DNA of 8,036 bases from a virus (IMGVR_UViG_2534682255_000011:1-8036); one strand, 5' to 3'; counted from the first letter of the stretch, positions 1,532-8,036 are shown. The notes: a model not told the origin generated them from the sequence alone. Program-made: numbers and translations.

Positions 1532-1770
1532 TTTTTCCCCCCTGCAACCAGCATTTCACGGATTTTGCGGATATAGCTTGCTGCACGTTTTTGATTTACG
1601 GCTTTATAATGGTCCACCAGCGTAAAATCACGGCGGTAGGTGATATTGCCTGGCGTAACGTGACGAATAACCACTCGTCCCCCACGTCTGGTGTCGCGGT
1701 AAATATCTCCGAGTCTGATTTCAGGCCGAGAGAGACCGCTGGCAGTAAAGCCAGAATTTTTCTTTTTCAT
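1528..1770 (-). CDS. Hypothetical small basic protein (80 aa), translationally coupled to the primase gene
   Basis: Complete ORF in the track. ATG at 1770 is preceded by AGGAAA about 8 nt upstream. Its stop overlaps the primase start (ATGA). No recognisable motif. Confidence 0.5.
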   Translation of the reverse strand: MKKKNSGFTASGLSRPEIRLGDIYRDTRRGGRVVIRHVTPGNITYRRDFTLVDHYKAVNQKRAASYIRKIREMLVAGGKK

Positions 1771-1800
1771 AGTTTTATTTTCCTGTCAGCAGTTCCGGTT

Positions 1801-1974
1801 TTATTTCCGCACGAATACAGAGTTCAGAAAAAATTCAGGAGAACCAACAATCTCATTACTTTTCAGTCGGCATTGTGATTTCACTTTCCCTTTATCCAGG
1901 TAAACCAGTACGCGTCCGGTGAAATCATCTGGCACATTAAGCACTACGGGTACATGCGCTTCATGATTATGCAT
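1801..1974 (-). CDS. Hypothetical small protein (57 aa)
   Basis: Not in the ORF track (below its length cut-off). Hand translation gives MHNHEAHVPVVLNVPDDFTGRVLVYLDKGKVKSQCRLKSNEIVGSPEFFLNSVFVRK with no internal stop. ATG at 1974 is preceded by GGAGGA with an 8 nt spacer and overlaps the stop of the upstream 197-aa gene (ATGCATAA). Confidence 0.4.
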   Translation of the reverse strand: MHNHEAHVPVVLNVPDDFTGRVLVYLDKGKVKSQCRLKSNEIVGSPEFFLNSVFVRK

Positions 1975-2560
1975 GGCTTACATCCTCCGTGAATTTTCTT
2001 CTGTAACGCGTCTCTGCCACATATTCCGCATAGTCCGACGCAATACTAAGAATCATTTCACCCTCTGACTTGTAGCCACTGGTATTGATAAGAAAATATG
2101 CAGCTTTCATCATGTCAGCAACGCTCAACAATGCGCCCGCTGCATCTTCCGGTGCGCCATCAAATTCCCGTTTCAGGGAATTAAAACGATCATCACGCAT
2201 GTTTACCCCCCCCTGAATGACCTGATAACCGCAACTGGTCAGCAATTCGATAAATTCCGGCAGTGTGCCGAAACAGCAATCATCACGCAGACGTTCGCGG
2301 GATACTTCAACGCCGTTTTCGTAGTGACTCACCATGCGTCCGGTAAAATGCAGATCATCATCGTGATGGCACGTTGACGGCTTAATCAGTCGCGCACGTT
2401 CCGCCAGTTCCAGCAATGCTTCAACGCTTCCGGCAATTGCACCATCCGGCAGGTGATAATTACTTACCACGCGTCCATTCTCCACGTTGACCAGTAGCTG
2501 CCCGGAAAATATCTCGTCAAACTGAATGCTGTTAAGGTCAGAAATTGACAGGTTATGCAT
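1967..2560 (-). CDS. Hypothetical protein (197 aa) of unknown function with Cys/His/Asp-rich segments
   Basis: Track ORF 1967..2578. The internal ATG at 2560 (MHNLSISD...) is preferred because AGGAGG lies 6-7 nt upstream and it overlaps the upstream stop as ATGCATAA. No family recognised by eye. Notable segments are CHHDDDLHF and RDDCCFGTLPEF. Confidence 0.6.
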   Translation of the reverse strand: MHNLSISDLNSIQFDEIFSGQLLVNVENGRVVSNYHLPDGAIAGSVEALLELAERARLIKPSTCHHDDDLHFTGRMVSHYENGVEVSRERLRDDCCFGTLPEFIELLTSCGYQVIQGGVNMRDDRFNSLKREFDGAPEDAAGALLSVADMMKAAYFLINTSGYKSEGEMILSIASDYAEYVAETRYRRKFTEDVSHA

Positions 2561-2777
2561 GGTGCACCTCCTGCACATCAGCCATGATAATTTTTCCGGC
2601 CTTATCCAGTGCCTGATCGGCTTTTAGCTGCACAAATGCTAAATAATGGAAGATGCATTCTGATTCTCTGGCTGCGTGTTTATGCGCCACACCAGCGATA
2701 GCAGAAATCTCAATAAGTGAATCCATCAGCGTTTTGATAGCGTCTACCGCTGCATCAGGCCATGTTGCATTACACAT
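2553..2777 (-). CDS. Hypothetical small protein (74 aa)
   Basis: Complete track ORF. ATG at 2777 overlaps the stop of the upstream 67-aa ORF (ATGTGTAA). A G-rich SD-like sequence (GGGGGTGG) lies just upstream. Its 3' end carries the SD for the next gene. Confidence 0.5.
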   Translation of the reverse strand: MCNATWPDAAVDAIKTLMDSLIEISAIAGVAHKHAARESECIFHYLAFVQLKADQALDKAGKIIMADVQEVHHA

Positions 2778-2973
2778 GTTCCACCCCCTGACGAATACGG
2801 GCGGCGAATACCATCACGCAGCCAACTGGGGATTGCTGGCGTGCTTCCTGTTCGCTGGTGGCCTCAATGGTAATCACGCGCGGTTGTGCCGTGCTCAGGG
2901 CGATAAAACGCCAGGTGAATTTATTCAGGTTGTGCAAGTCCCGCCCTTGCGGGTGTGTGGTATGATTTCTCAT
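2770..2973 (-). CDS. Hypothetical small protein (67 aa), first gene of the early operon; possibly Kil/Icd-like cell-division inhibitor (tentative)
   Basis: This is the C-terminal 67 codons of track ORF 2770..3513. The internal ATG at 2973 (MRNHTTHPQGRDL...) is preferred because GAGGT lies about 5 nt upstream and the long N-terminal extension would run through the promoter/operator region and the antisense of the divergent gene. The Kil/Icd-like call rests only on position (first small ORF of a P4-like early operon) and a vague resemblance (KFTWRFIALS...VMVFAARI). Confidence 0.45.
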   Translation of the reverse strand: MRNHTTHPQGRDLHNLNKFTWRFIALSTAQPRVITIEATSEQEARQQSPVGCVMVFAARIRQGVEHV

Positions 2974-3008
2974 AGCTACCTCGATACTGTTGCTATCGTT
3001 GGTGGTCA

Positions 3009-3043
3009 GAGGCTGCGAAAGGACGGCAATCCTTTTCAGCCTC
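3009..3043 (-). promoter_or_regulatory. Stable imperfect hairpin in the 5' leader of the early operon
   Basis: GAGGCTG-cg-AAAGGA-cggcaa-TCCTTT-t-CAGCCTC: a 7 bp outer stem and 6 bp inner stem separated by a small bulge. It lies 36-70 nt upstream of the 67-aa ORF start. No U-tract follows on the minus strand, so it is not a canonical intrinsic terminator. Confidence 0.3.
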
Positions 3044-3068
3044 GTTTGCATTGAGTGATAAACACTCA

Positions 3069-3150
3069 ACTGGATTCCAGTATAATCACTAAGTGGAATC
3101 CACTTCAAGCGTTTTGTTTTGGTCTTTTTCGTGTATACTGGATTCCAGTA
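3069..3150. promoter_or_regulatory. Divergent promoter region with three related palindromic operator-like sites
   Basis: Perfect inverted repeats at 3069-3081 (ACTGGA-T-TCCAGT), 3091-3105 (AAGTGGA-A-TCCACTT) and 3136-3150 (TACTGGA-T-TCCAGTA), sharing the core TGGA-W-TCCA. Candidate -10 hexamers overlap them: TATAAT at 3081-3086 and TATACT at 3134-3139 on the plus strand, and on the minus strand TTGAAG (complement of 3104-3109), an 18 nt spacer, then TATACT (complement of 3079-3084). Confidence 0.5.
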
Positions 3151-3169
3151 ATCACAAAGGGAACCAGAA

Positions 3170-3349
3170 ATGGAAAGAGACCATATCAATAACAAATCAC
3201 AGAAATTACAGGCTCGCGCCCCGCATGAAGTTGTTGAGGCTATGGAGCAAGTAAAAGAAACAGGCGAGAGCACTGCGCAATTTATCGTTACAGCCATGCG
3301 AGGCGAGATCAAACGCCGCCAGCGCCGCAAGGCCAAAGAAGCGGAATAG
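3170..3349 (+). CDS. Small DNA-binding protein, ribbon-helix-helix-like (59 aa); putative regulator of the divergent promoters
   Basis: Not in the ORF track (below cut-off). ATG at 3170 with AAGGGA 7 nt upstream; TAG at 3347-3349. Translation is MERDHINNKSQKLQARAPHEVVEAMEQVKETGESTAQFIVTAMRGEIKRRQRRKAKEAE. The pattern fits a beta-strand, helix, turn, helix Arc/CopG-type layout with a basic tail. It is the only plus-strand gene and diverges from the operator region. Confidence 0.55.
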   Translation: MERDHINNKSQKLQARAPHEVVEAMEQVKETGESTAQFIVTAMRGEIKRRQRRKAKEAE

Positions 3350-3437: not shown

Positions 3438-3470
3438 GGCGACCTCTGATCCGGGTCGCCTTTGTTTTGT
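3438..3470 (+). terminator. Rho-independent terminator downstream of the RHH-like gene
   Basis: GGCGACC / GGTCGCC 7 bp stem (3438-3444 and 3454-3460) with a 9 nt loop, followed by TTTGTTTTGT. The minus-strand orientation lacks a U-tract. Confidence 0.5.
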
Positions 3471-4051
3471 CACTGAATGCGGTTGCCAAAGTAAAACTCA
3501 GGCTGATATTCACGTATCAGCCTTTTTTCTTCTTCCTCCAGCTCACGCTTTTTGCGCTTACATGCCTGTAGCTCCCTCCCCTTCTGACTGGCACTTAACT
3601 GATATTGCTCTTTACGGCGAGAAAAGTCCTGTAATGCGCCCCACGGGATACCATAAGCCCCCGTTTTTCTGATTCCTGGTATCACATTCCTGAATACCCA
3701 GTTACTGAAACGATGGGCGAACGTGCCAGGAGTAACAGCTTTCCGACTTCTGGCGATCAGCTTGTAAAAACCGGATTCAGAAATGAGGCTATGATTTGGA
3801 TTTCCTCGAATACCGTAGCTTAAAGCGACGGTTTTCTTTTCATCCGCATCTAGTGCTTTTAGAGCATCGCGTGAGTTACTTATTTCCAGAGCAACACAAA
3901 CATCCTTTGCAACAAACCACGGATCGCCGTTCAGATACACCACGCGAACGTTCACACTATCAAAGCGCAGAACGACCAGATCACGAAAATCACAGAATTT
4001 TTTTACATGACGTGCGTCACCCTTGCCCGTCACGGCAATATTTTTATTCAT
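3470..4051 (-). CDS. Bro-N domain protein (phage antirepressor-like), 193 aa, with charged coiled-coil-like C-terminus
   Basis: Complete track ORF. The N-terminal region VRVVYLNGDPWFVAKDVCVALEI...ALKALDADEK matches the Bro-N signature. The C-terminal about 50 aa is K/E/R-rich. Confidence 0.8.
   Translation of the reverse strand: MNKNIAVTGKGDARHVKKFCDFRDLVVLRFDSVNVRVVYLNGDPWFVAKDVCVALEISNSRDALKALDADEKKTVALSYGIRGNPNHSLISESGFYKLIARSRKAVTPGTFAHRFSNWVFRNVIPGIRKTGAYGIPWGALQDFSRRKEQYQLSASQKGRELQACKRKKRELEEEEKRLIREYQPEFYFGNRIQ
3500..3530 (+). terminator. Second plus-strand intrinsic terminator-like hairpin, embedded in the 3' coding end of the Bro-N gene
   Basis: AGGCTGATA / TATCAGCCT 9 bp perfect stem (3500-3508 and 3515-3523) with a 6 nt loop, followed by TTTTTTCTTCTT. 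Confidence 0.4.
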
Positions 4052-4110: not shown

Positions 4111-4314
4111 TTAGTGGGGATTGGCCTGTTCTCGTTGTTTATCTAACCATGCTTCTACATCTCTACGGTGCCAGGTATGTCGTCGTCCAATTCTGAACGG
4201 CTGAGGAAAACCATTATTCTCATCTTTCCAGAAATTGATGAATGCACTCATTGCTCCATATCGCAAGATTTTCATTACGTCTTTAGTAAATAAAATATCT
4301 TCATTGGTATTCAT
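4111..4314 (-). CDS. alpA: AlpA-family (Vis/excisionase-like) small DNA-binding regulator
   Basis: Track ORF 4111..4335. The ATG at 4314 (MNTNEDILFTKDV...) is preferred because GAGGAGG lies 8 nt upstream; the 4335 start would overlap the int stop and has a weak RBS. Small size, position immediately downstream of a P4-type integrase, and a basic/aromatic C-terminal half fit AlpA-like regulators. Confidence 0.7.
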   Translation of the reverse strand: MNTNEDILFTKDVMKILRYGAMSAFINFWKDENNGFPQPFRIGRRHTWHRRDVEAWLDKQREQANPH

Positions 4315-4327
4315 TTGCTGAACCTCC

Positions 4328-5566
4328 TCAACCATTTACTACTCTTAAACCTTTCATACCACCGGATCTATTAATTACCCCTTTTCTCGCATCATCAAAA
4401 AAATCACCGACCCATTGCATCATGATCTTACGCTGTTCTAGATAAATAGTTCTATTATAAATATCTCTTATTTTATCACCACTTTTATGCGCCAATGCAG
4501 CCTCGATTACATCGGGGTTAAATCCCTCCTCATTTAAAAGCGTACTCCACATTGAACGAAAACCATGTAACGTTACAATCCCTTTGAACTTACTGGCAGC
4601 AATTGGGGTCTTGATAGTATTCCTCCCCATAGGCGCATCTTTTGTTCTGGAGGAAAAAAACACATAACGCCCTCTTTTTATTTCCTGCATTGTTCTGAGG
4701 ATACTAATAGCCTGTGATGACAAGGGAACAACATGTTCACGATGGCATTTCATTTTATGCGCGGGGATAATCCACAAGCCAGAATCAAAATCAATCTCTG
4801 ACCACTCTGCTTTAATCGCCTCACCTGGCCTGACCATTGTCAATATCTGGAATAAAAGTGCATTATGAGCTATTTGATAGGTATGAGGCACACTATCCCA
4901 CCAGCTCAGAAATTCAGGCAATCTTTCAACAGGTAGTGCTGCTAATGATTTATTTTTCTTTCCTGTGAATGCAGTCTTTATCTTAAGTAATGGATTTGCT
5001 TTCAATGCTCCACAATTTACAGCATAATTCATAATTTCATTTAATCTTGATATTAATTTTTTTTGCAACGCATTCTTATCGGATACGGCATCCAGAGCAT
5101 TAATAGCTACTGGTGCTGTAATTTTTTCTATACTGTACTTACCAAAGAAAGGAACAAGATATTTGTATACTTCATATTCGATATTATACAGCGTAGGTTT
5201 CCGCAATTCAGATCCCTTTTTAAAAGCGAACCATGCATTAGCAACAGCTTCAAATGTCTGTAGATTTTTTAGTGACATCTCAATTTTACGATTTTTCTTC
5301 TCCGTCACTGGATCAACTCCACGTGCAATCATTCGCCGAAGTTCATCACGTACTTCCCGTGCTTCCGCGAGTGAGAATTCAGGAAAACGTCCTATCGTGT
5401 ATGTCTGCCGTTTCTTCGTTATCGGATGGCTATAACGGAAACGCCACACTTTCCCACCGGCTTTACTCACATTCAGCAATAAACCGAACCCATCATAAAC
5501 GGCATAGTCCTTTTCACGTGGTTTCATCCCCTTAACTTCAGTCACGGTTAATGGCTTTACCGACAT
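4328..5566 (-). CDS. int: Tyrosine site-specific integrase, P4-like
   Basis: 412 aa. The N-terminus (LTVTEVKGMKPREKDYAVYDGFGLLLNVSKAGGKVWRFRY) matches the arm-binding domain of P4-family integrases. The C-terminus has HGFRSMWST...IRDIYNRTIY, consistent with the catalytic H/R/Y region. GAGGG lies 6 nt upstream of the ATG. The gene is visibly AT-rich compared with its neighbours. Confidence 0.9.
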   Translation of the reverse strand: MSVKPLTVTEVKGMKPREKDYAVYDGFGLLLNVSKAGGKVWRFRYSHPITKKRQTYTIGRFPEFSLAEAREVRDELRRMIARGVDPVTEKKNRKIEMSLKNLQTFEAVANAWFAFKKGSELRKPTLYNIEYEVYKYLVPFFGKYSIEKITAPVAINALDAVSDKNALQKKLISRLNEIMNYAVNCGALKANPLLKIKTAFTGKKNKSLAALPVERLPEFLSWWDSVPHTYQIAHNALLFQILTMVRPGEAIKAEWSEIDFDSGLWIIPAHKMKCHREHVVPLSSQAISILRTMQEIKRGRYVFFSSRTKDAPMGRNTIKTPIAASKFKGIVTLHGFRSMWSTLLNEEGFNPDVIEAALAHKSGDKIRDIYNRTIYLEQRKIMMQWVGDFFDDARKGVINRSGGMKGLRVVNG

Positions 5567-5727
5567 CTATCGCCCTCATTTTTTAGTCCGTCATGTAGTC
5601 CATTCAAGCCAATAACAAGCGATAAACTAACTCATTATCAAGCAAAGAGAGGAAACTCATAAAATCACAACTCATTGAAAAGACTATGAAACGACACCAG
5701 AACATACAAACAGGTAAGAAATGTACC

Positions 5728-6735
5728 CTACATCCAAAATGACGCAATCCGGGAGTTTCGTGGCGTTCCGGTGATACTGCCGTCCGCCGCCGCCCGTTCA
5801 CCTTCACGAAGCCAGATCCCCTGGTTATTCAGTTCGCGTTTCTGCTCAGGGGCAATCAGCCCGCGACAATGCGGACACATCAGACGGGCAGCCTGACCGG
5901 CAGCCACAAAATCCGGGTTATTCCGGTATCCGGTCATGTTATCCATCACCGGCTGAAAATATTCCCCGCAGTGCGGACACGGCCAGTACCACCGGCGGCG
6001 GTCTCCCCGGTTATACAGTGACAGGATCCCCGTTGTTGGCGGTGCCTCATGTGCGCCACCACAACGCCATTTGGTATCGGTGATATCCCGCCCCGGTGAA
6101 CTCTCGACCAGGGTCATCCCCGAGGACATAAAGGTGGTGGTACGCTTTGAGGCCAGCGTGAAGGCATCCCCTTCCCCGTCCACATTTTCAGGGAAACGGT
6201 CATAATCCGTCAGCGCCACACGACGGTAATCCGAAGAGGAAAAGACGGTGATCGACGGCCAGCCAATCTTCAGGAAGGAGCCGTCAAGAAACATTTTATC
6301 GTGGACGTTGTTGTCATTACGGGAAGGACTGAGGCGCTTGCTGACCTCCGGACTGTGGCGAAACGTCCTGGAAAGACGCGTTCTGGAATGCTCACGCGCC
6401 TTCGTCTCAGTCATCTGCACCACCAGCATATCCGCCGGATCACAGATGATGCCGTACACAATCCAGCCATCAATCAGCCCTTCGGTTTTCCCGGTTCGCG
6501 CAGGTCCCACAAACACCACCGCGTCATATTCACGGGCTGATAATGTATTAATGGGGTCAATCATATAGGGCGTCAGCGATGACTCCCACGGACCGGAAGT
6601 ATTGGCTCCCCGTGGAACCCGCATATAACGCCTGATGGCTTCCGCTACTGGTAACCGGCTGGGTGGGCGAAACAGCGAGGCCACTTCGCGCCAGATATCG
6701 GATGCGCGGCTATGGCTCTCGTTCACCTGATTCAC
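5728..6735 (-). pseudogene. Terminase large subunit (lambda gpA-like), N-terminal 335 codons only; truncated
   Basis: The translation aligns by eye with the lambda gpA N-terminus as recalled from memory (SLFRP near the start; CPHCGE zinc-ribbon-like motif; GIWLREG), and VFVGPARTGKTE looks like a P-loop. The ORF stops at 5728 at roughly half the length of lambda gpA, and the 160 bp downstream are AT-rich non-coding sequence running into int. The track start is GTG at 6735, overlapping the Nu1-like stop (GTGA). Confidence 0.8.
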
Positions 6736-7208
6736 ATATCGGCCTCATCACAACAGTCAATGACTGCCTTTTCCAGTGTGTCGCGGATCTCATCAACCAC
6801 AATCTGTACTTCATTCAGTTGTGATGCAGTCCACCCCCTGTCCCTCTCCAGCCGGTCAGGCCAGGTTTCCAGTACCTGAACTATCGCTTTCACCACGACA
6901 GAAAAGGACCGCCTGACATCACTGACTGGCACAAGCTGAACAGTTTCATGCTGAAATTTAAGACGCTCGCGCTCGGACTGATACCATGCCTTACGAGCGT
7001 GAGGATCCATATCCTCATCTTCGGAAGATGGTGGTTTTTCCAGCAACGAAGTTATCAAATCCGTCAGGAGATACAGTTTTTTCTTTTCATTACTGCCTGG
7101 TGCAAGAGGAACATCCGCCATTCTGGCGGCAACAGTCTGCCGGTGCAGACCTGAAAGGGCTGCCAGTTGATTAATATTTAACTTCATATTTTTCAGCTCG
7201 CCGTCCAT
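6732..7208 (-). CDS. Terminase small subunit (lambda Nu1-like)
   Basis: The N-terminal KLNINQLAALSGLHRQTVAARMA resembles the Nu1 HTH region (lambda EVNKKQLADIFGASIRTIQNW, from memory). GGAGGG lies 6 nt upstream of the ATG at 7208; an alternative start at 7187 (MKLNIN...) aligns better with lambda. The stop overlaps the terminase large subunit start. Confidence 0.8.
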   Translation of the reverse strand: MDGELKNMKLNINQLAALSGLHRQTVAARMADVPLAPGSNEKKKLYLLTDLITSLLEKPPSSEDEDMDPHARKAWYQSERERLKFQHETVQLVPVSDVRRSFSVVVKAIVQVLETWPDRLERDRGWTASQLNEVQIVVDEIRDTLEKAVIDCCDEADM

Positions 7209-7384
7209 TTACATCCCTCCACATAAACCGCAGAACAGAAGTGACTCTGTTTTTTTGTAAAGAAATGCCGCCATATAAAGATGTCGAACAAAAAACAACC
7301 ACAATCATCATCTTTTTAATACTAACAGCATTAAAAACAACAAGTTACCATCATGATGATGATGACGATAAAATCACAAAAATG

Positions 7385-7420
7385 CGCCTTTTTCCGCGCC
7401 CGCCCGCCCCGTGTTCAGGC
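7385..7420. other. Candidate lambda-type cos site (cosN-like GC-rich core) upstream of the terminase small subunit gene
   Basis: Minus-strand reading gives GGGGCGGGCGGGCGCGGAAAAAGGCGCATTTTTG, resembling the lambda left end GGGCGGCGACCTCGCGGGTTTTCGC (from memory). It lies about 180 bp upstream of the Nu1-like start and is followed by an AT-rich tract. Exact cut positions are not determinable from sequence. Confidence 0.4.
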
Positions 7421-7669
7421 CCACCCCACCAGGAGGACCCGCAAAAATGATAATGGTTATCATTTGCAACAAAATCCAGTTTCTTCCACCATCGCACCGG
7501 ACTGGCGACTATGAGGGGACAACACCGCGCTCCGTTAACGCGGTAAACCCCGGTGTGTATCGTTTTTGATTATCCCCGCACACTCTCGCAGAGGAGTCTC
7601 CCTGTCGGGCTGCGGTCTCTGTTAATGCAGGAATACGGCGACAATACCGCGCATGAATAATAAGGTCGC

Positions 7670-7894
7670 TCAACACACTGGCTGTAATGCAGCGGATACC
7701 ATGCGGCATTTAGCGGCATTCATCGTACACTCAACGGTTAGCTCTTCATTCGTGGCATTCACCTGAAAGGTCCTGGAGTGTAATTGCGTACATTTACCAC
7801 TGAACGAACCTTCAACAAGAACACGACCACGCTGCAAAATACGGAACGGAATTGTTCCCTGAAAAGGCTTTACGGTTACCAATAATTTCTTCAT
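7670..7894 (-). CDS. Hypothetical small protein (74 aa) between the lysis module and cos
   Basis: Track ORF 7670..7912 begins at TTG. The internal ATG at 7894 (MKKLLVTVKPF...) has GGAGAA 5 nt upstream. Four Cys residues; no recognisable family. Confidence 0.4.
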   Translation of the reverse strand: MKKLLVTVKPFQGTIPFRILQRGRVLVEGSFSGKCTQLHSRTFQVNATNEELTVECTMNAAKCRMVSAALQPVC

Positions 7895-7917
7895 GCATTC
7901 TCCGAATAACAAAAATA

Positions 7918-8036
7918 CTAGTTAATACACTGAGTGCGGATATATTCCTGAAGCATTCTCAATGCTGCCTGGTCGCTGATGATTCCGTCTCTGATACCGA
8001 GAACGTTTCGTCCAGCAACCGGAGAGAGTTCGACGG
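7918..8036 (-). CDS. Rz-like i-spanin, C-terminal fragment (partial; start beyond window end)
   Basis: Minus-strand frame is open from the window end to TAG at 7918-7920. The C-terminus ...AALRMLQEYIRTQCIN resembles the lambda Rz C-terminus ...QKQLEGTQKYINEQCR (from memory). Its position just upstream of cos and Nu1 is as expected for a lambdoid late region. Confidence 0.45.
   Translation of the reverse strand, partial: VELSPVAGRNVLGIRDGIISDQAALRMLQEYIRTQCIN

What the first reader, a model, noticed from the sequence alone, without database searches (positions are those of the whole stretch)
3009..3043. Structured hairpin in the early-operon leader
A 13 bp imperfect stem-loop lies 36-70 nt upstream of the first early ORF. 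It has no U-tract, so it is not a standard terminator. P4 controls its early operon through an RNA-based immunity factor processed from the leader, so a structured leader here could play a comparable role; it could also be an RNase or protein recognition site.
Basis: partly seen in the sequence, partly recalled or inferred. Interest (0 to 1): 0.4.

Follow-up and report, generated by a model that had tools for sequence, protein, structure and literature searches.

The report
Terminator hairpin of a satellite antisense RNA
The hairpin is real, but its shape has been preserved on the opposite strand, where it looks like the 3' end of a small unannotated antisense RNA that covers the ribosome-binding site of the first gene of a phage satellite's replication operon.

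Summary
The stem-loop at 3009-3043 exists as described: 14 pairs, about -18 kcal/mol on either strand, z about -4.

It lies 36-70 nt upstream of the ATG (2973, minus strand) of an Icd-like ORF. That ORF opens the replication operon of a helper-embedded PICI satellite inserted in a prophage terminase gene.

A hairpin sits at this same position in more than 200 related loci, with many different sequences and strong covariation. On 98 aligned loci, 97% of cells are paired and 16 of 19 pairs change on both sides.

The pairing is preserved on the window + strand, antisense to the operon: 167 G.U cells against 4 A.C cells. On that strand the hairpin follows a second conserved stem-loop next to the anti-Shine-Dalgarno CCUC, has a T-rich tail, and lies about 45 nt downstream of a conserved -10-like hexamer inside the ORF's first codons.

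Best reading: it is the terminator stem-loop of an approximately 80-nt cis-antisense RNA (about 2972-3052, +) that blocks translation of the operon's first ORF.

No Rfam family matches, and the papers I searched do not describe it. No transcript data were available. In this window's hairpin class, both the strand bias and the T-tail are weak.

The parts
3009..3043 (+). SL2: the reported hairpin, read here as the terminator stem-loop of the antisense RNA
   Evidence: Folds at -18.7 kcal/mol on +. A positional homologue is present in all related loci. In SL2, 11 of 14 pairs have changes on both sides. G.U cells occur almost only on the + strand.
3044..3052 (+). T-rich tail GTTTGCATT after SL2 (weak U-tract)
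   Evidence: Read directly from the sequence. Relatives carry TTTGCTTTTTT, TTTCGTCGTTTCT or GTTGCTTAATTT. The simple terminator scan does not flag it.
2982..2998 (+). SL1: CGATA-CTGTTGC-TATCG, a 5-bp stem with a 7-nt loop
   Evidence: All 5 pairs show changes on both sides across lineages, for example CGATA/TATCG, CGTTA/TAACG and TGTTA/TAACA, and 99.3% of cells are paired (sequences).
2979..2982 (+). Anti-Shine-Dalgarno CCTC, the complement of the GAGG that lies 5 nt upstream of the Icd-like ATG
   Evidence: Sequence. In lineage 2 the CCTC/CTCC lies inside the SL1 loop.
2999..3008 (+). U/G-rich single-stranded spacer TTGGTGGTCA between SL1 and SL2
   Evidence: Conserved as TTGGTGGTTA, GTTTGGTTA or TTGTGGTTA in relatives.
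2958..2966 (+). Predicted promoter of the antisense RNA: extended -10 TGgTATGAT inside Icd-like codons 3-6
   Evidence: A TAnnnT hexamer is visible at the equivalent place in all 68 unique upstream contexts. The regex window tallied 49; the other 19 show GGGTATGCT or GGGTAGACT just upstream of an offset hit start, and one (the second copy in L032) has only an offset TATGCT. Changes to TATAAT, TATGCT, TAGACT and TACACT keep T1, A2 and T6 and arise through amino-acid-changing substitutions. There is no good -35, and the sigma-70 scan does not flag it.
2972..3052 (+). Predicted ~80-nt cis-antisense RNA (5' and 3' ends inferred, not mapped)
   Evidence: Covariance model R1 hits 2972-3058 + at 84.1 bits. 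The 81-nt stretch folds at -32.1 kcal/mol with z = -4.1 into SL1 and SL2.
2770..2973 (-). Icd-like ORF (67 aa), first gene of the replication operon and the presumed target
   Evidence: ORF list and RefSeq annotation. It overlaps the next ORF (2553-2777) by 8 nt.
2974..3072 (-). Sense leader of the operon; contains the complement of the whole predicted antisense RNA
   Evidence: Inferred from the promoter-like site TTGAAG-18-TATACT at 3108..3079. Fold.
3079..3108 (-). Sigma-70-like promoter of the Icd-like operon
   Evidence: Consensus scan, 9 of 12 matches.
3069..3150 (.). Candidate operator set: ACTGGATTCCAGTA at 3069 and 3137, and TGGAATCCA at 3094, overlapping the divergent promoters
   Evidence: the repeat finder families D1 and I1-I3.
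3170..3349 (+). Divergent 59-aa YlcI/YnfO-family gene, a candidate regulator of the region
   Evidence: RefSeq annotation. No Pfam hit.

Best explanation
The hairpin is the 3' stem-loop (SL2), most likely an intrinsic terminator, of a small RNA of about 80 nt transcribed from the + strand, antisense to the satellite's replication operon. Transcription would start at about 2972, opposite the Icd-like start codon, from a -10 element lying in codons 3-6 of that ORF. The RNA would run through the anti-SD CCUC, stem-loop SL1 and a U/G-rich spacer, and end after SL2 at about 3050. Because it is fully complementary to the operon leader, it would pair with the leader and occlude the Shine-Dalgarno sequence, and probably the AUG, of the Icd-like ORF. 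The downstream ORFs overlap start-to-stop, so loss of translation of the first ORF should reduce expression of the downstream replication genes (DUF4222 and primase). That reduction would come through lost translational coupling, Rho polarity or RNase III cleavage. The expected outcome is that the satellite stays quiescent, or that its copy number is limited. What is shown: the structure, its conservation, its strand, and its position relative to the RBS. What is inferred: the promoter, the exact ends, termination, and the regulatory outcome.
For: 1. Position. A hairpin sits 3-4 nt from the conserved leader in every relative examined, in at least 8 sequence classes in lineage 1 and many more in lineage 2.
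2. Covariation. On alignment A2, 96.1% of cells are paired, 9 pairs change on both sides, and 0 of 500 shuffles reach the observed score. On A4 (97 distinct sequences), 97.1% are paired and 16 of 19 pairs change on both sides. The covariation score is 0.426 against 0.168 in shuffles, and slid controls pair only 38-44%.
3. Strand. In 26 of 29 unique lineage-1 hairpins the + strand fold is 2.5-14 kcal/mol more stable. A2 has 61 G.U cells and 0 A.C cells. A4 has 167 G.U and 4 A.C. Single-base variants such as L038, L041 and L045 keep pairing only on the + strand.
4. Tail. T-rich tails occur only on the + strand side.
5. Promoter. A TAnnnT hexamer is visible at the equivalent place in all 68 unique upstream contexts; the script's window caught 49 and the rest were read by eye. 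Its A2 is the wobble base of a codon that itself changes among His, Tyr, Ser and Cys.
6. Independent detection. A covariance model built only from lineage 1 finds exactly one full-length hit per lineage-2 locus (E 1e-6 to 1e-17). Every hit is placed over the start of the downstream ORF and on the opposite strand.
7. Portable cassette. The unit of RNA, RBS and the first ~13 codons precedes different proteins, including direct primase fusions. This argues that those codons are conserved for a nucleotide-level function.
8. Extent of structure. Structure conservation stops at SL1. The GC hairpin at 2940-2953 is broken by variants.
Against: No transcript, 5' end or 3' end has been observed. The promoter is only a -10-like element: an extended -10 in lineage 1, and a weak -35/-10 in lineage 2. 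The consensus scan does not report it. The simple terminator scan flags neither the window nor relative L009. In this window's own hairpin class the strand preference is almost absent (+ minus - is -0.8 kcal/mol, and +1.2 in variant L050). Its tail GTTTGCATT is the weakest in the family, so assigning it to the + strand rests on positional homology. Loci were collected with sequence anchors next to the element, so the conservation of flanking bases, including part of the promoter region, is partly ascertainment. A4 was fitted to the model's structure.
Confidence: 0.62

Rival explanations
1. The + strand structure is real, but it is not a dedicated regulatory RNA. SL2 would be an attenuator or insulating terminator that stops antisense or read-through transcription from inside the operon before it enters the divergent promoter/operator region. 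Alternatively, it could be a leader/attenuator for the divergent regulator gene (YlcI/YnfO, 3170-3349).
For: It has the same strand evidence as the main model. SL2 ends about 7-15 nt before the + strand promoter-like site TAAACA-16-TATAAT at 3059-3086. The weak tail in this window would allow read-through toward 3170.
Against: The gene to the right differs between classes (YlcI/YnfO, hypothetical, SWIM, or none on that strand), while the SL1-spacer-SL2 unit stays constant. SL1 and the anti-SD placement are conserved with covariation, and a plain insulator would not need them. The cassette also travels with the downstream ORF start, not with the right-hand gene.
Confidence: 0.17
2. One reading: the hairpin forms in the sense leader of the early operon. 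There it would act as a P4-CI-like immunity RNA or processing product, an RNase or protein recognition site, or a stabilising or attenuating leader structure.
For: The sense strand also folds well in this window's class (-17.9 kcal/mol, z -4.2). The hairpin lies inside the predicted sense leader. The sequence after it (CUGACCACCAACGAUAGCAACAG) is C/A-rich and G-poor, as expected for a Rho-loading region (inference from the sequence).
Against: No C4, isrK or other Rfam model matches. In the family, the sense-strand version carries C.A/A.C mismatches where the antisense version has G.U (167 against 4 cells). The sense fold is 2.5-14 kcal/mol weaker in 26 of 29 hairpin variants. There is no U-tract on the sense side.
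Confidence: 0.08
3. A DNA-level element: a single-stranded-DNA hairpin on the + strand, such as a priming or initiation signal for the satellite's primase, or an inverted-repeat protein-binding site.
For: The strand-specific G.T tolerance would also fit an ssDNA hairpin. The operon encodes a primase and an SSB.
Against: The element is tied to the RBS and start of the first ORF, with an anti-SD and a -10-like hexamer in fixed register. It has a T-rich 3' tail, typical of a transcription unit. According to PMC10111431, mapped PICI origins colocalise with the primase/SSB genes, not with this intergenic region. A duplex-DNA operator would not tolerate the complete sequence turnover with compensatory changes seen here.
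Confidence: 0.05

Closest known systems
Sar RNA of phage P22 immI (from my own knowledge: Liao, Wu, Chiang and Susskind, Genes Dev 1987)
   Same: Both are small (~70-80 nt) cis-antisense RNAs whose promoter lies inside the 5' end of the target gene. Both read back across the target's ribosome-binding site and end at a stem-loop terminator in the upstream intergenic region. Both sit in a regulatory region with a divergently transcribed small regulator and palindromic operators.
   Different: There is no sequence or structure similarity: no Rfam hit at E <= 10 on the + strand at 2972-3052. The target here is the first ORF of a satellite's replication operon, not an antirepressor. Expression is not demonstrated.
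CopA/CopT-tap-repA control of plasmid R1, and IS10 RNA-OUT (from my own knowledge)
   Same: An antisense RNA with a recognition stem-loop blocks translation of a short leading ORF or RBS, and downstream replication or transposition genes depend on that translation through coupling. The stems tolerate G.U pairs on the antisense RNA. Loop and stem sequence differences define specificity groups.
   Different: Not homologous. Here the host is an integrated phage satellite rather than a plasmid or IS element. A role in copy-number control or specificity is inferred only.
P1/P7 c4 RNA-icd-ant and P4 CI RNA (Rfam C4 RF01695, isrK RF01394)
   Same: The logic is shared: an RNA prevents translation of a small leading ORF (icd in P1), and the downstream genes are then not expressed. 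Here too the leading ORF is annotated Icd-like. PMC10111431 reports CI/seqA relatives in some PICI Bro zones.
   Different: c4 and CI are encoded on the same strand as their operon, are processed from its leader, and act through short repeated target boxes. This RNA is on the opposite strand and is fully complementary to its target. No C4 or isrK match exists in this window.
Helper-embedded PICI satellites (HE-PICI; PMC10111431)
   Same: The surrounding element fits the description: integrase, HTH/AlpA-like gene, Bro-N gene, replication zone with primase and SSB, and a capsid/protease late gene, all integrated inside the terminase large-subunit gene of a lambdoid prophage.
   Different: This is the host element, not the hairpin. 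The paper does not mention antisense RNA or hairpins anywhere in its text, and its only two uses of 'terminator' refer to P4.

Membership tests
P4 CI / P1-P7 c4 / IsrK immunity RNAs (Rfam C4, isrK) | Match to the family covariance model | tested here: not met
   No hit at gathering score in the whole window. With E <= 10 the only hit is isrK at 10.9 bits (gathering score 50), at 3051-3119 +, outside the hairpin. No hit at the homologous site in 8 related loci.
P4 CI / P1-P7 c4 / IsrK immunity RNAs (Rfam C4, isrK) | RNA encoded on the same strand as the controlled operon and processed from its leader | tested here: not met
   Pairing is maintained on the opposite strand: 167 G.U against 4 A.C cells. 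The + strand is more stable in 26 of 29 variants.
P4 CI / P1-P7 c4 / IsrK immunity RNAs (Rfam C4, isrK) | Short repeated target boxes (seqA/seqC, a2/b2) complementary to loops of the RNA | not tested
   I did not search for such boxes.
Rho-independent (intrinsic) terminator | G+C-rich stem-loop | tested here: met
   14 pairs, -18.7 kcal/mol on +. Relatives range from -14 to -27 kcal/mol.
Rho-independent (intrinsic) terminator | U-tract immediately 3' of the stem | tested here: inconclusive
   The window has GTTTGCAT, 4 T in 8, below the scanner's threshold of 5. Relatives have 4-6 T in 8 in 84 of 98 loci, but the scanner does not flag L009 either.
Rho-independent (intrinsic) terminator | Transcripts end there | not testable with these tools
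   Needs Term-seq, 3' RACE or in vitro transcription.
cis-encoded antisense sRNA of mobile elements (Sar / RNA-OUT / CopA type; functional class) | Secondary structure conserved on the strand opposite the target gene | tested here: met
cis-encoded antisense sRNA of mobile elements (Sar / RNA-OUT / CopA type; functional class) | Overlaps the translation-initiation region of the target | tested here: met
   The conserved structured unit includes the complement of the SD (CCTC 2979-2982). That complement is adjacent to SL1 in lineage 1 and inside the SL1 loop in lineage 2. Coverage of the AUG depends on the unmapped 5' end.
cis-encoded antisense sRNA of mobile elements (Sar / RNA-OUT / CopA type; functional class) | Own promoter on the antisense strand | tested here: inconclusive
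   A TAnnnT hexamer is visible in all 68 upstream contexts (49 tallied by the script, the rest read by eye). TGn is present in lineage 1 only. There is no good -35, the sigma-70 scan does not flag it, and the flanks are partly fixed by the search anchors.
cis-encoded antisense sRNA of mobile elements (Sar / RNA-OUT / CopA type; functional class) | Discrete short transcript detected, with repression of the target | not testable with these tools
   No expression data are held here. Literature searches found none.
Described antisense RNA families (all Rfam release 15 models) | Homology to a described family's covariance model | tested here: not met
   No Rfam family reaches E <= 10 on the + strand over 2972-3052. 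It works like these RNAs but is not a member of any family held in Rfam.
Helper-embedded PICI (context element) | Integration, Bro, Replication and Late zones, inserted in a helper prophage late gene | tested here: met
   RefSeq features and the split terminase gene. Stx-phage terminase homology at 5726-7950. Pfam integrase, Bro-N and a weak HTH_17. Definition taken from PMC10111431.

The most novel reading that the evidence does not exclude
The SL1 loop and the fast-evolving SL2 may be specificity determinants of an RNA-based immunity or incompatibility system for Gram-negative PICI and P4-like satellites. Each satellite's antisense RNA would silence its own replication operon. Because the 5' ~37 nt are nearly identical across lineage 1, it might also silence the operons of related incoming or co-resident satellites. 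Hairpin turnover would then create new specificity groups that allow up to six elements to share one E. coli genome.
Probability: 0.25. Interest if true: 0.65.

Novelty: new member of a known kind. Interest (0 to 1): 0.5.

Why it matters
Regulation of Gram-negative PICI and helper-embedded satellites is currently described in terms of proteins (AlpA, Bro-network proteins) and, for some elements, P4-type CI RNA (PMC10111431).

A conserved antisense RNA placed over the ribosome-binding site of the first replication-operon ORF would add an RNA layer to how these satellites stay silent or limit their replication.

The conserved 5' part of the unit is found in 1245 of 5426 complete E. coli genomes, with up to 6 copies per genome. 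It is also found in Edwardsiella, Hafnia, Rahnella and Tenebrionibacter.

The predicted ends, promoter and pairing are precise enough to test directly, and the covariance model could be used to annotate the RNA.

Tried and rejected
- **Rfam.** I scanned the window at gathering score, the region at E <= 10, and 8 related loci. Nothing matched at the site.
- **Consensus terminator scan.** It flags neither the window hairpin nor the L009 homologue. It requires a simple stem with a 3-8 nt loop and 5 T in 8, so it gives no support either way.
- **Protein-seeded locus search.** The search for related loci with the 67-aa Icd-like protein returned only 6 loci. DNA-pattern scans of viral contigs were far more productive.
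- **Phage collection.** tblastn of the Icd-like protein against the phage collection gave one weak hit and no P4 context.
- **Synonymous-site analysis.** Codons 1-26 of the Icd-like ORF have nearly invariant third positions alongside amino-acid changes, while codons 27-62 look normal. This is suggestive, but the sample was selected on an adjacent 27-nt anchor, so I do not use it as evidence.
- **A + strand protein gene ending at the hairpin (ORF 2653-3054).** Rejected. The frame is closed by TAG in the spacer GGTTAGA in most relatives and is open here only because of GGTCAGA. The open length upstream varies from 0 to 171 codons.
- **GC hairpin CCCGCCCTTGCGGG (2940-2953) as part of the RNA.** Rejected. 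Natural variants break it on both strands.
- **Literature.** Searches for an antisense or small RNA in PICI or P4-like satellites found nothing relevant. The HE-PICI paper and the EcCIMP1 paper do not mention antisense RNA or hairpins.
- **Co-resident elements.** I tried to test whether satellites in the same genome carry different SL2 classes, but the locus files carry no contig names and too few same-genome pairs were available.

Full report
**Observation.** The bases at 3009-3043 (GAGGCTGCGAAAGGACGGCAATCCTTTTCAGCCTC) form a 14-pair stem-loop with one bulge. As RNA it folds at -17.9 kcal/mol on the minus strand (z -4.2) and -18.7 kcal/mol on the plus strand (z -4.4). The nearest gene is on the minus strand: a 67-codon ORF at 2770-2973 that RefSeq annotates as 'host cell division inhibitor Icd-like protein'. 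The hairpin is exactly 36-70 nt upstream of its ATG, and on that strand it has no U-tract.

**Context.** The window is identical to part of E. coli 13E0725 and to many STEC chromosomes. The annotated neighbourhood, given in window coordinates, runs from right to left along the minus strand as follows:
- tyrosine integrase (4328-5566);
- a small HTH gene (4111-4335);
- a Bro-N gene (3470-4051).

Next comes a divergent YlcI/YnfO-family gene on the plus strand (3170-3349). After that comes the leftward operon: Icd-like ORF, small ORFs (several pseudogenised), DUF4222, primase, SSB, and a ClpP-protease/capsid fusion.

The whole ~10.4-kb block splits a lambdoid prophage terminase large-subunit gene. 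Window 5726-7950 matches Stx-phage terminase regions at 96-99% identity. This is the 'helper-embedded PICI' architecture of PMC10111431, with its Integration, Bro, Replication and Late zones. Pfam confirms the integrase and Bro-N and gives a weak HTH_17 hit. The hairpin therefore lies in the leader of the satellite's replication operon. A sigma-70-like promoter (TTGAAG-18-TATACT, 3108..3079, minus strand) would start that leader near 3072.

**The hairpin is a conserved position with a variable sequence.** blastn of 2960-3180 against 5426 complete E. coli genomes matches 1245 of them. In most, homology covers only 2960-3013/3018 and stops at the foot of the hairpin. I aligned four such loci. 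I then collected 119 viral-contig loci using the conserved leader as a pattern. Every locus has a different hairpin at the same place, 3-4 nt from the conserved leader. There were 52 distinct 60-nt upstream contexts and 29 distinct hairpins in at least 8 classes. This window's class (GAGGCTG...CAGCCTC) is rare, seen only in L032, L049, L050 and L054.

A second, more diverse lineage has downstream ORFs beginning MAGTQHTQTHPKF. It was collected with a coding-region pattern and also appears in Hafnia, Rahnella and Tenebrionibacter genomes. It shows the same layout.

**Covariation.** On a 33-sequence MAFFT alignment (A2), the two-helix structure is 96.1% paired and 9 pairs change on both sides. 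No shuffle out of 500 reaches the observed score, and slid controls pair only 33-55%.

I built a covariance model from lineage 1 only (R1). It finds exactly one full-length hit in each lineage-2 locus (E 1e-6 to 1e-17), plus a few weak AT-rich neighbours. On the 98-hit alignment A4, 97.1% of cells pair and 16 of 19 pairs change on both sides, including all 5 pairs of the upstream stem-loop SL1. The covariation score is 0.426 against 0.168 in shuffles, and slid controls pair 38-44%. A4 is fitted to the model, which favours the structure. The MAFFT-based result and the raw sequences agree with it.

**Which strand.** Base pairs that survive as G.U on one strand become C.A mismatches on the other, so the two strands can be told apart.
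- In 26 of 29 lineage-1 hairpins the window + strand fold is 2.5-14 kcal/mol more stable. It has 1-4 G.U pairs there, against 0-1 on the sense strand.
- On A2 there are 61 G.U cells and no A.C cell.
- On A4 there are 167 G.U cells and 4 A.C cells.
- Point variants such as L038, L041 and L045 keep pairing only on the + strand.

The structure is therefore selected on the strand antisense to the operon. This window's class is the exception: the difference is -0.8 kcal/mol, and +1.2 in variant L050. For this particular hairpin the strand call rests on positional homology.

**Anatomy on the + strand.**
- **Promoter-like element.** An extended -10, TGgTATGAT (2958-2966), lies inside Icd-like codons 3-6. 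Relatives have TATAAT, TATGCT, TAGACT or TACACT. T1, A2 and T6 do not vary in any of the 68 distinct upstream contexts; the script tallied 49 and I read the rest by eye. The changes arise through amino-acid substitutions (His/Tyr/Ser/Cys), while the wobble base that forms A2 stays T.
- **Predicted start.** About 6-9 nt further on lies the complement of the start codon (CAT 2971-2973), which is where transcription would begin.
- **Anti-SD.** CCTC at 2979-2982.
- **SL1.** CGATA-N7-TATCG at 2982-2998. In lineage 2 it is CGTTA/TAACG or TGTTA/TAACA, with the anti-SD inside the loop.
- **Spacer.** A U/G-rich stretch at 2999-3008.
- **SL2.** The reported hairpin, 3009-3043.
- **Tail.** T-rich: GTTTGCATT here, and for example TTTGCTTTTTT or TTTCGTCGTTTCT elsewhere. 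There are 4-6 T in the first 8 nt in 84 of 98 loci.

The 81-nt stretch 2972-3052 folds at -32.1 kcal/mol (z -4.1) into SL1 and SL2. Structure conservation does not extend further upstream: the GC hairpin at 2940-2953 is broken by natural variants.

The cassette of RNA, RBS and the first ~13 codons precedes different proteins. These include short and long Icd-like forms and, in L137 and L161, a primase directly. This fits a nucleotide-level function for those first codons.

**Mechanism proposed.** I read the unit as a ~80-nt cis-antisense RNA whose terminator stem-loop is the reported hairpin. It is perfectly complementary to the sense leader, so it would pair with it, perhaps starting through the SL1 or SL2 loops. 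That pairing would occlude the SD and probably the AUG of the Icd-like ORF. The ORFs of the operon overlap: 2770-2973 and 2553-2777 share 8 nt, with further overlaps downstream. Blocking the first ORF should therefore lower expression of the downstream replication genes, through lost coupling, Rho polarity or RNase III cleavage.
- Shown: the structure, its conservation, its strand and its register with the RBS.
- Inferred: transcription from the -10, termination at SL2, and repression.

**Weak points.** I have no transcript evidence. The promoter has no good -35 and is not reported by the sigma-70 scan. The simple terminator scan flags neither the window nor L009. The flanks of the element were partly fixed by my search anchors. 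For that reason I do not rely on the unusual synonymous-site conservation in codons 1-26.

**Rivals.**
- **(a) Attenuator or insulator.** The + strand structure could protect, or feed into, the divergent regulatory region. This is compatible with the strand data. It does not explain the conserved SL1 and anti-SD, or the fact that the unit travels with the ORF start while the right-hand gene changes.
This is contradicted by the wobble asymmetry and by the absence of any C4 or isrK match.
- **(c) An ssDNA or duplex-DNA site.** This is unlikely given the fixed register with the RBS and the -10, the T-rich tail, and the complete sequence turnover with compensation.
- **(d) A + strand ORF, 2653-3054.** It runs through the hairpin here but is not conserved.

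**Comparison with known systems.** By function and layout, the closest systems I know of (from memory, not tested here) are P22 Sar RNA, IS10 RNA-OUT and R1 CopA/tap/repA. In logic it resembles P1 c4-icd-ant. It is not a member of any family held in Rfam: none reaches E <= 10 on the + strand over 2972-3052. P4 CI and P1 c4 differ in being same-strand, processed, trans-acting RNAs. Rfam 15 has no family at this site in the window or in 8 relatives. Four full-text searches and two satellite papers yielded no description of it. I therefore classify it as a new member of a known kind.

**Verdict.** Interest is moderate. The mechanism is conventional. However, the RNA family is well supported by covariation, widespread in Enterobacterales satellites, apparently unannotated, and directly testable.

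Noticed in passing
window 4328-7950 (and L001 484-13036): The satellite (~10.4 kb) is inserted inside the terminase large-subunit gene of a lambdoid, Stx-phage-like prophage. The N-terminal part of that gene is at window 5728-6735, and the C-terminal part lies beyond the far end of the satellite. This matches the 'helper-embedded PICI' configuration of PMC10111431.
   Followed up: partly
window 3069-3150: There are three copies of a 9-bp palindrome: TGGATTCCA at 3071 and 3139, and TGGAATCCA at 3094. They sit inside a 14-nt direct repeat, ACTGGATTCCAGTA. They overlap the -10 elements of the divergent promoter-like sites (TATACT on the minus strand at 3084..3079, TATAAT on the plus strand at 3081-3086). 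They are probably operators of a class-specific repressor.
   Followed up: partly
window 3052-3070: An inverted repeat, TTGAGTG-ATAAA-CACTCAA, lies directly after the T-rich tail, at the predicted start of the sense leader. Other hairpin classes carry a different palindrome at the same place, for example CACCTTG...CAAGGTG or AGGTGTATTTCACCT. It could be an operator or a 5' leader hairpin.
   Followed up: no
window 2940-2953: A GC-rich hairpin, CCCGCCCTTGCGGG, lies inside Icd-like codons 7-12, just upstream of the predicted antisense -10. It is nearly invariant in lineage 1, but its natural variants break the stem and lineage 2 lacks it.
   Followed up: partly
window 2653-3054 (+): A 133-codon + strand ORF runs antisense through the Icd-like gene and the hairpin. 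It is open here only because the spacer reads GGTCAGA instead of the usual GGTTAGA (TAG stop). It is not conserved.
   Followed up: yes
window 2770-2973, codons 1-26: Across relatives the first 26 codons have almost invariant third positions together with several amino-acid changes, while codons 27-62 show the normal pattern of variable third positions. This is confounded by how the loci were collected.
   Followed up: partly
L017 9683-9769 and 10478-10555; L032 3070-3156 and 2326-2403: Some satellites carry two copies of the antisense-RNA module about 750 nt apart in the same orientation. The second copy lies ahead of another ORF in the Bro zone.
   Followed up: no
L137 and L161 (ORF after the module): In these loci the conserved cassette (RNA, RBS and MADIQHTQTHPKF) is fused directly to a P4-alpha-like primase N-terminus (CP.CGGTDRFHF zinc motif) instead of an Icd-like protein.
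   Followed up: no
L169 11672-11739 (-): Rfam int-alpA RNA (RF02996, 45.5 bits) is present in a related satellite. No such match exists in this window, where the int and HTH genes overlap.
   Followed up: no
window 1770-2560 (L001 8076-8861): RefSeq marks three consecutive small ORFs of the replication operon as pseudogenes (frameshift, internal stop, truncation). This copy of the satellite may be decaying.
   Followed up: no
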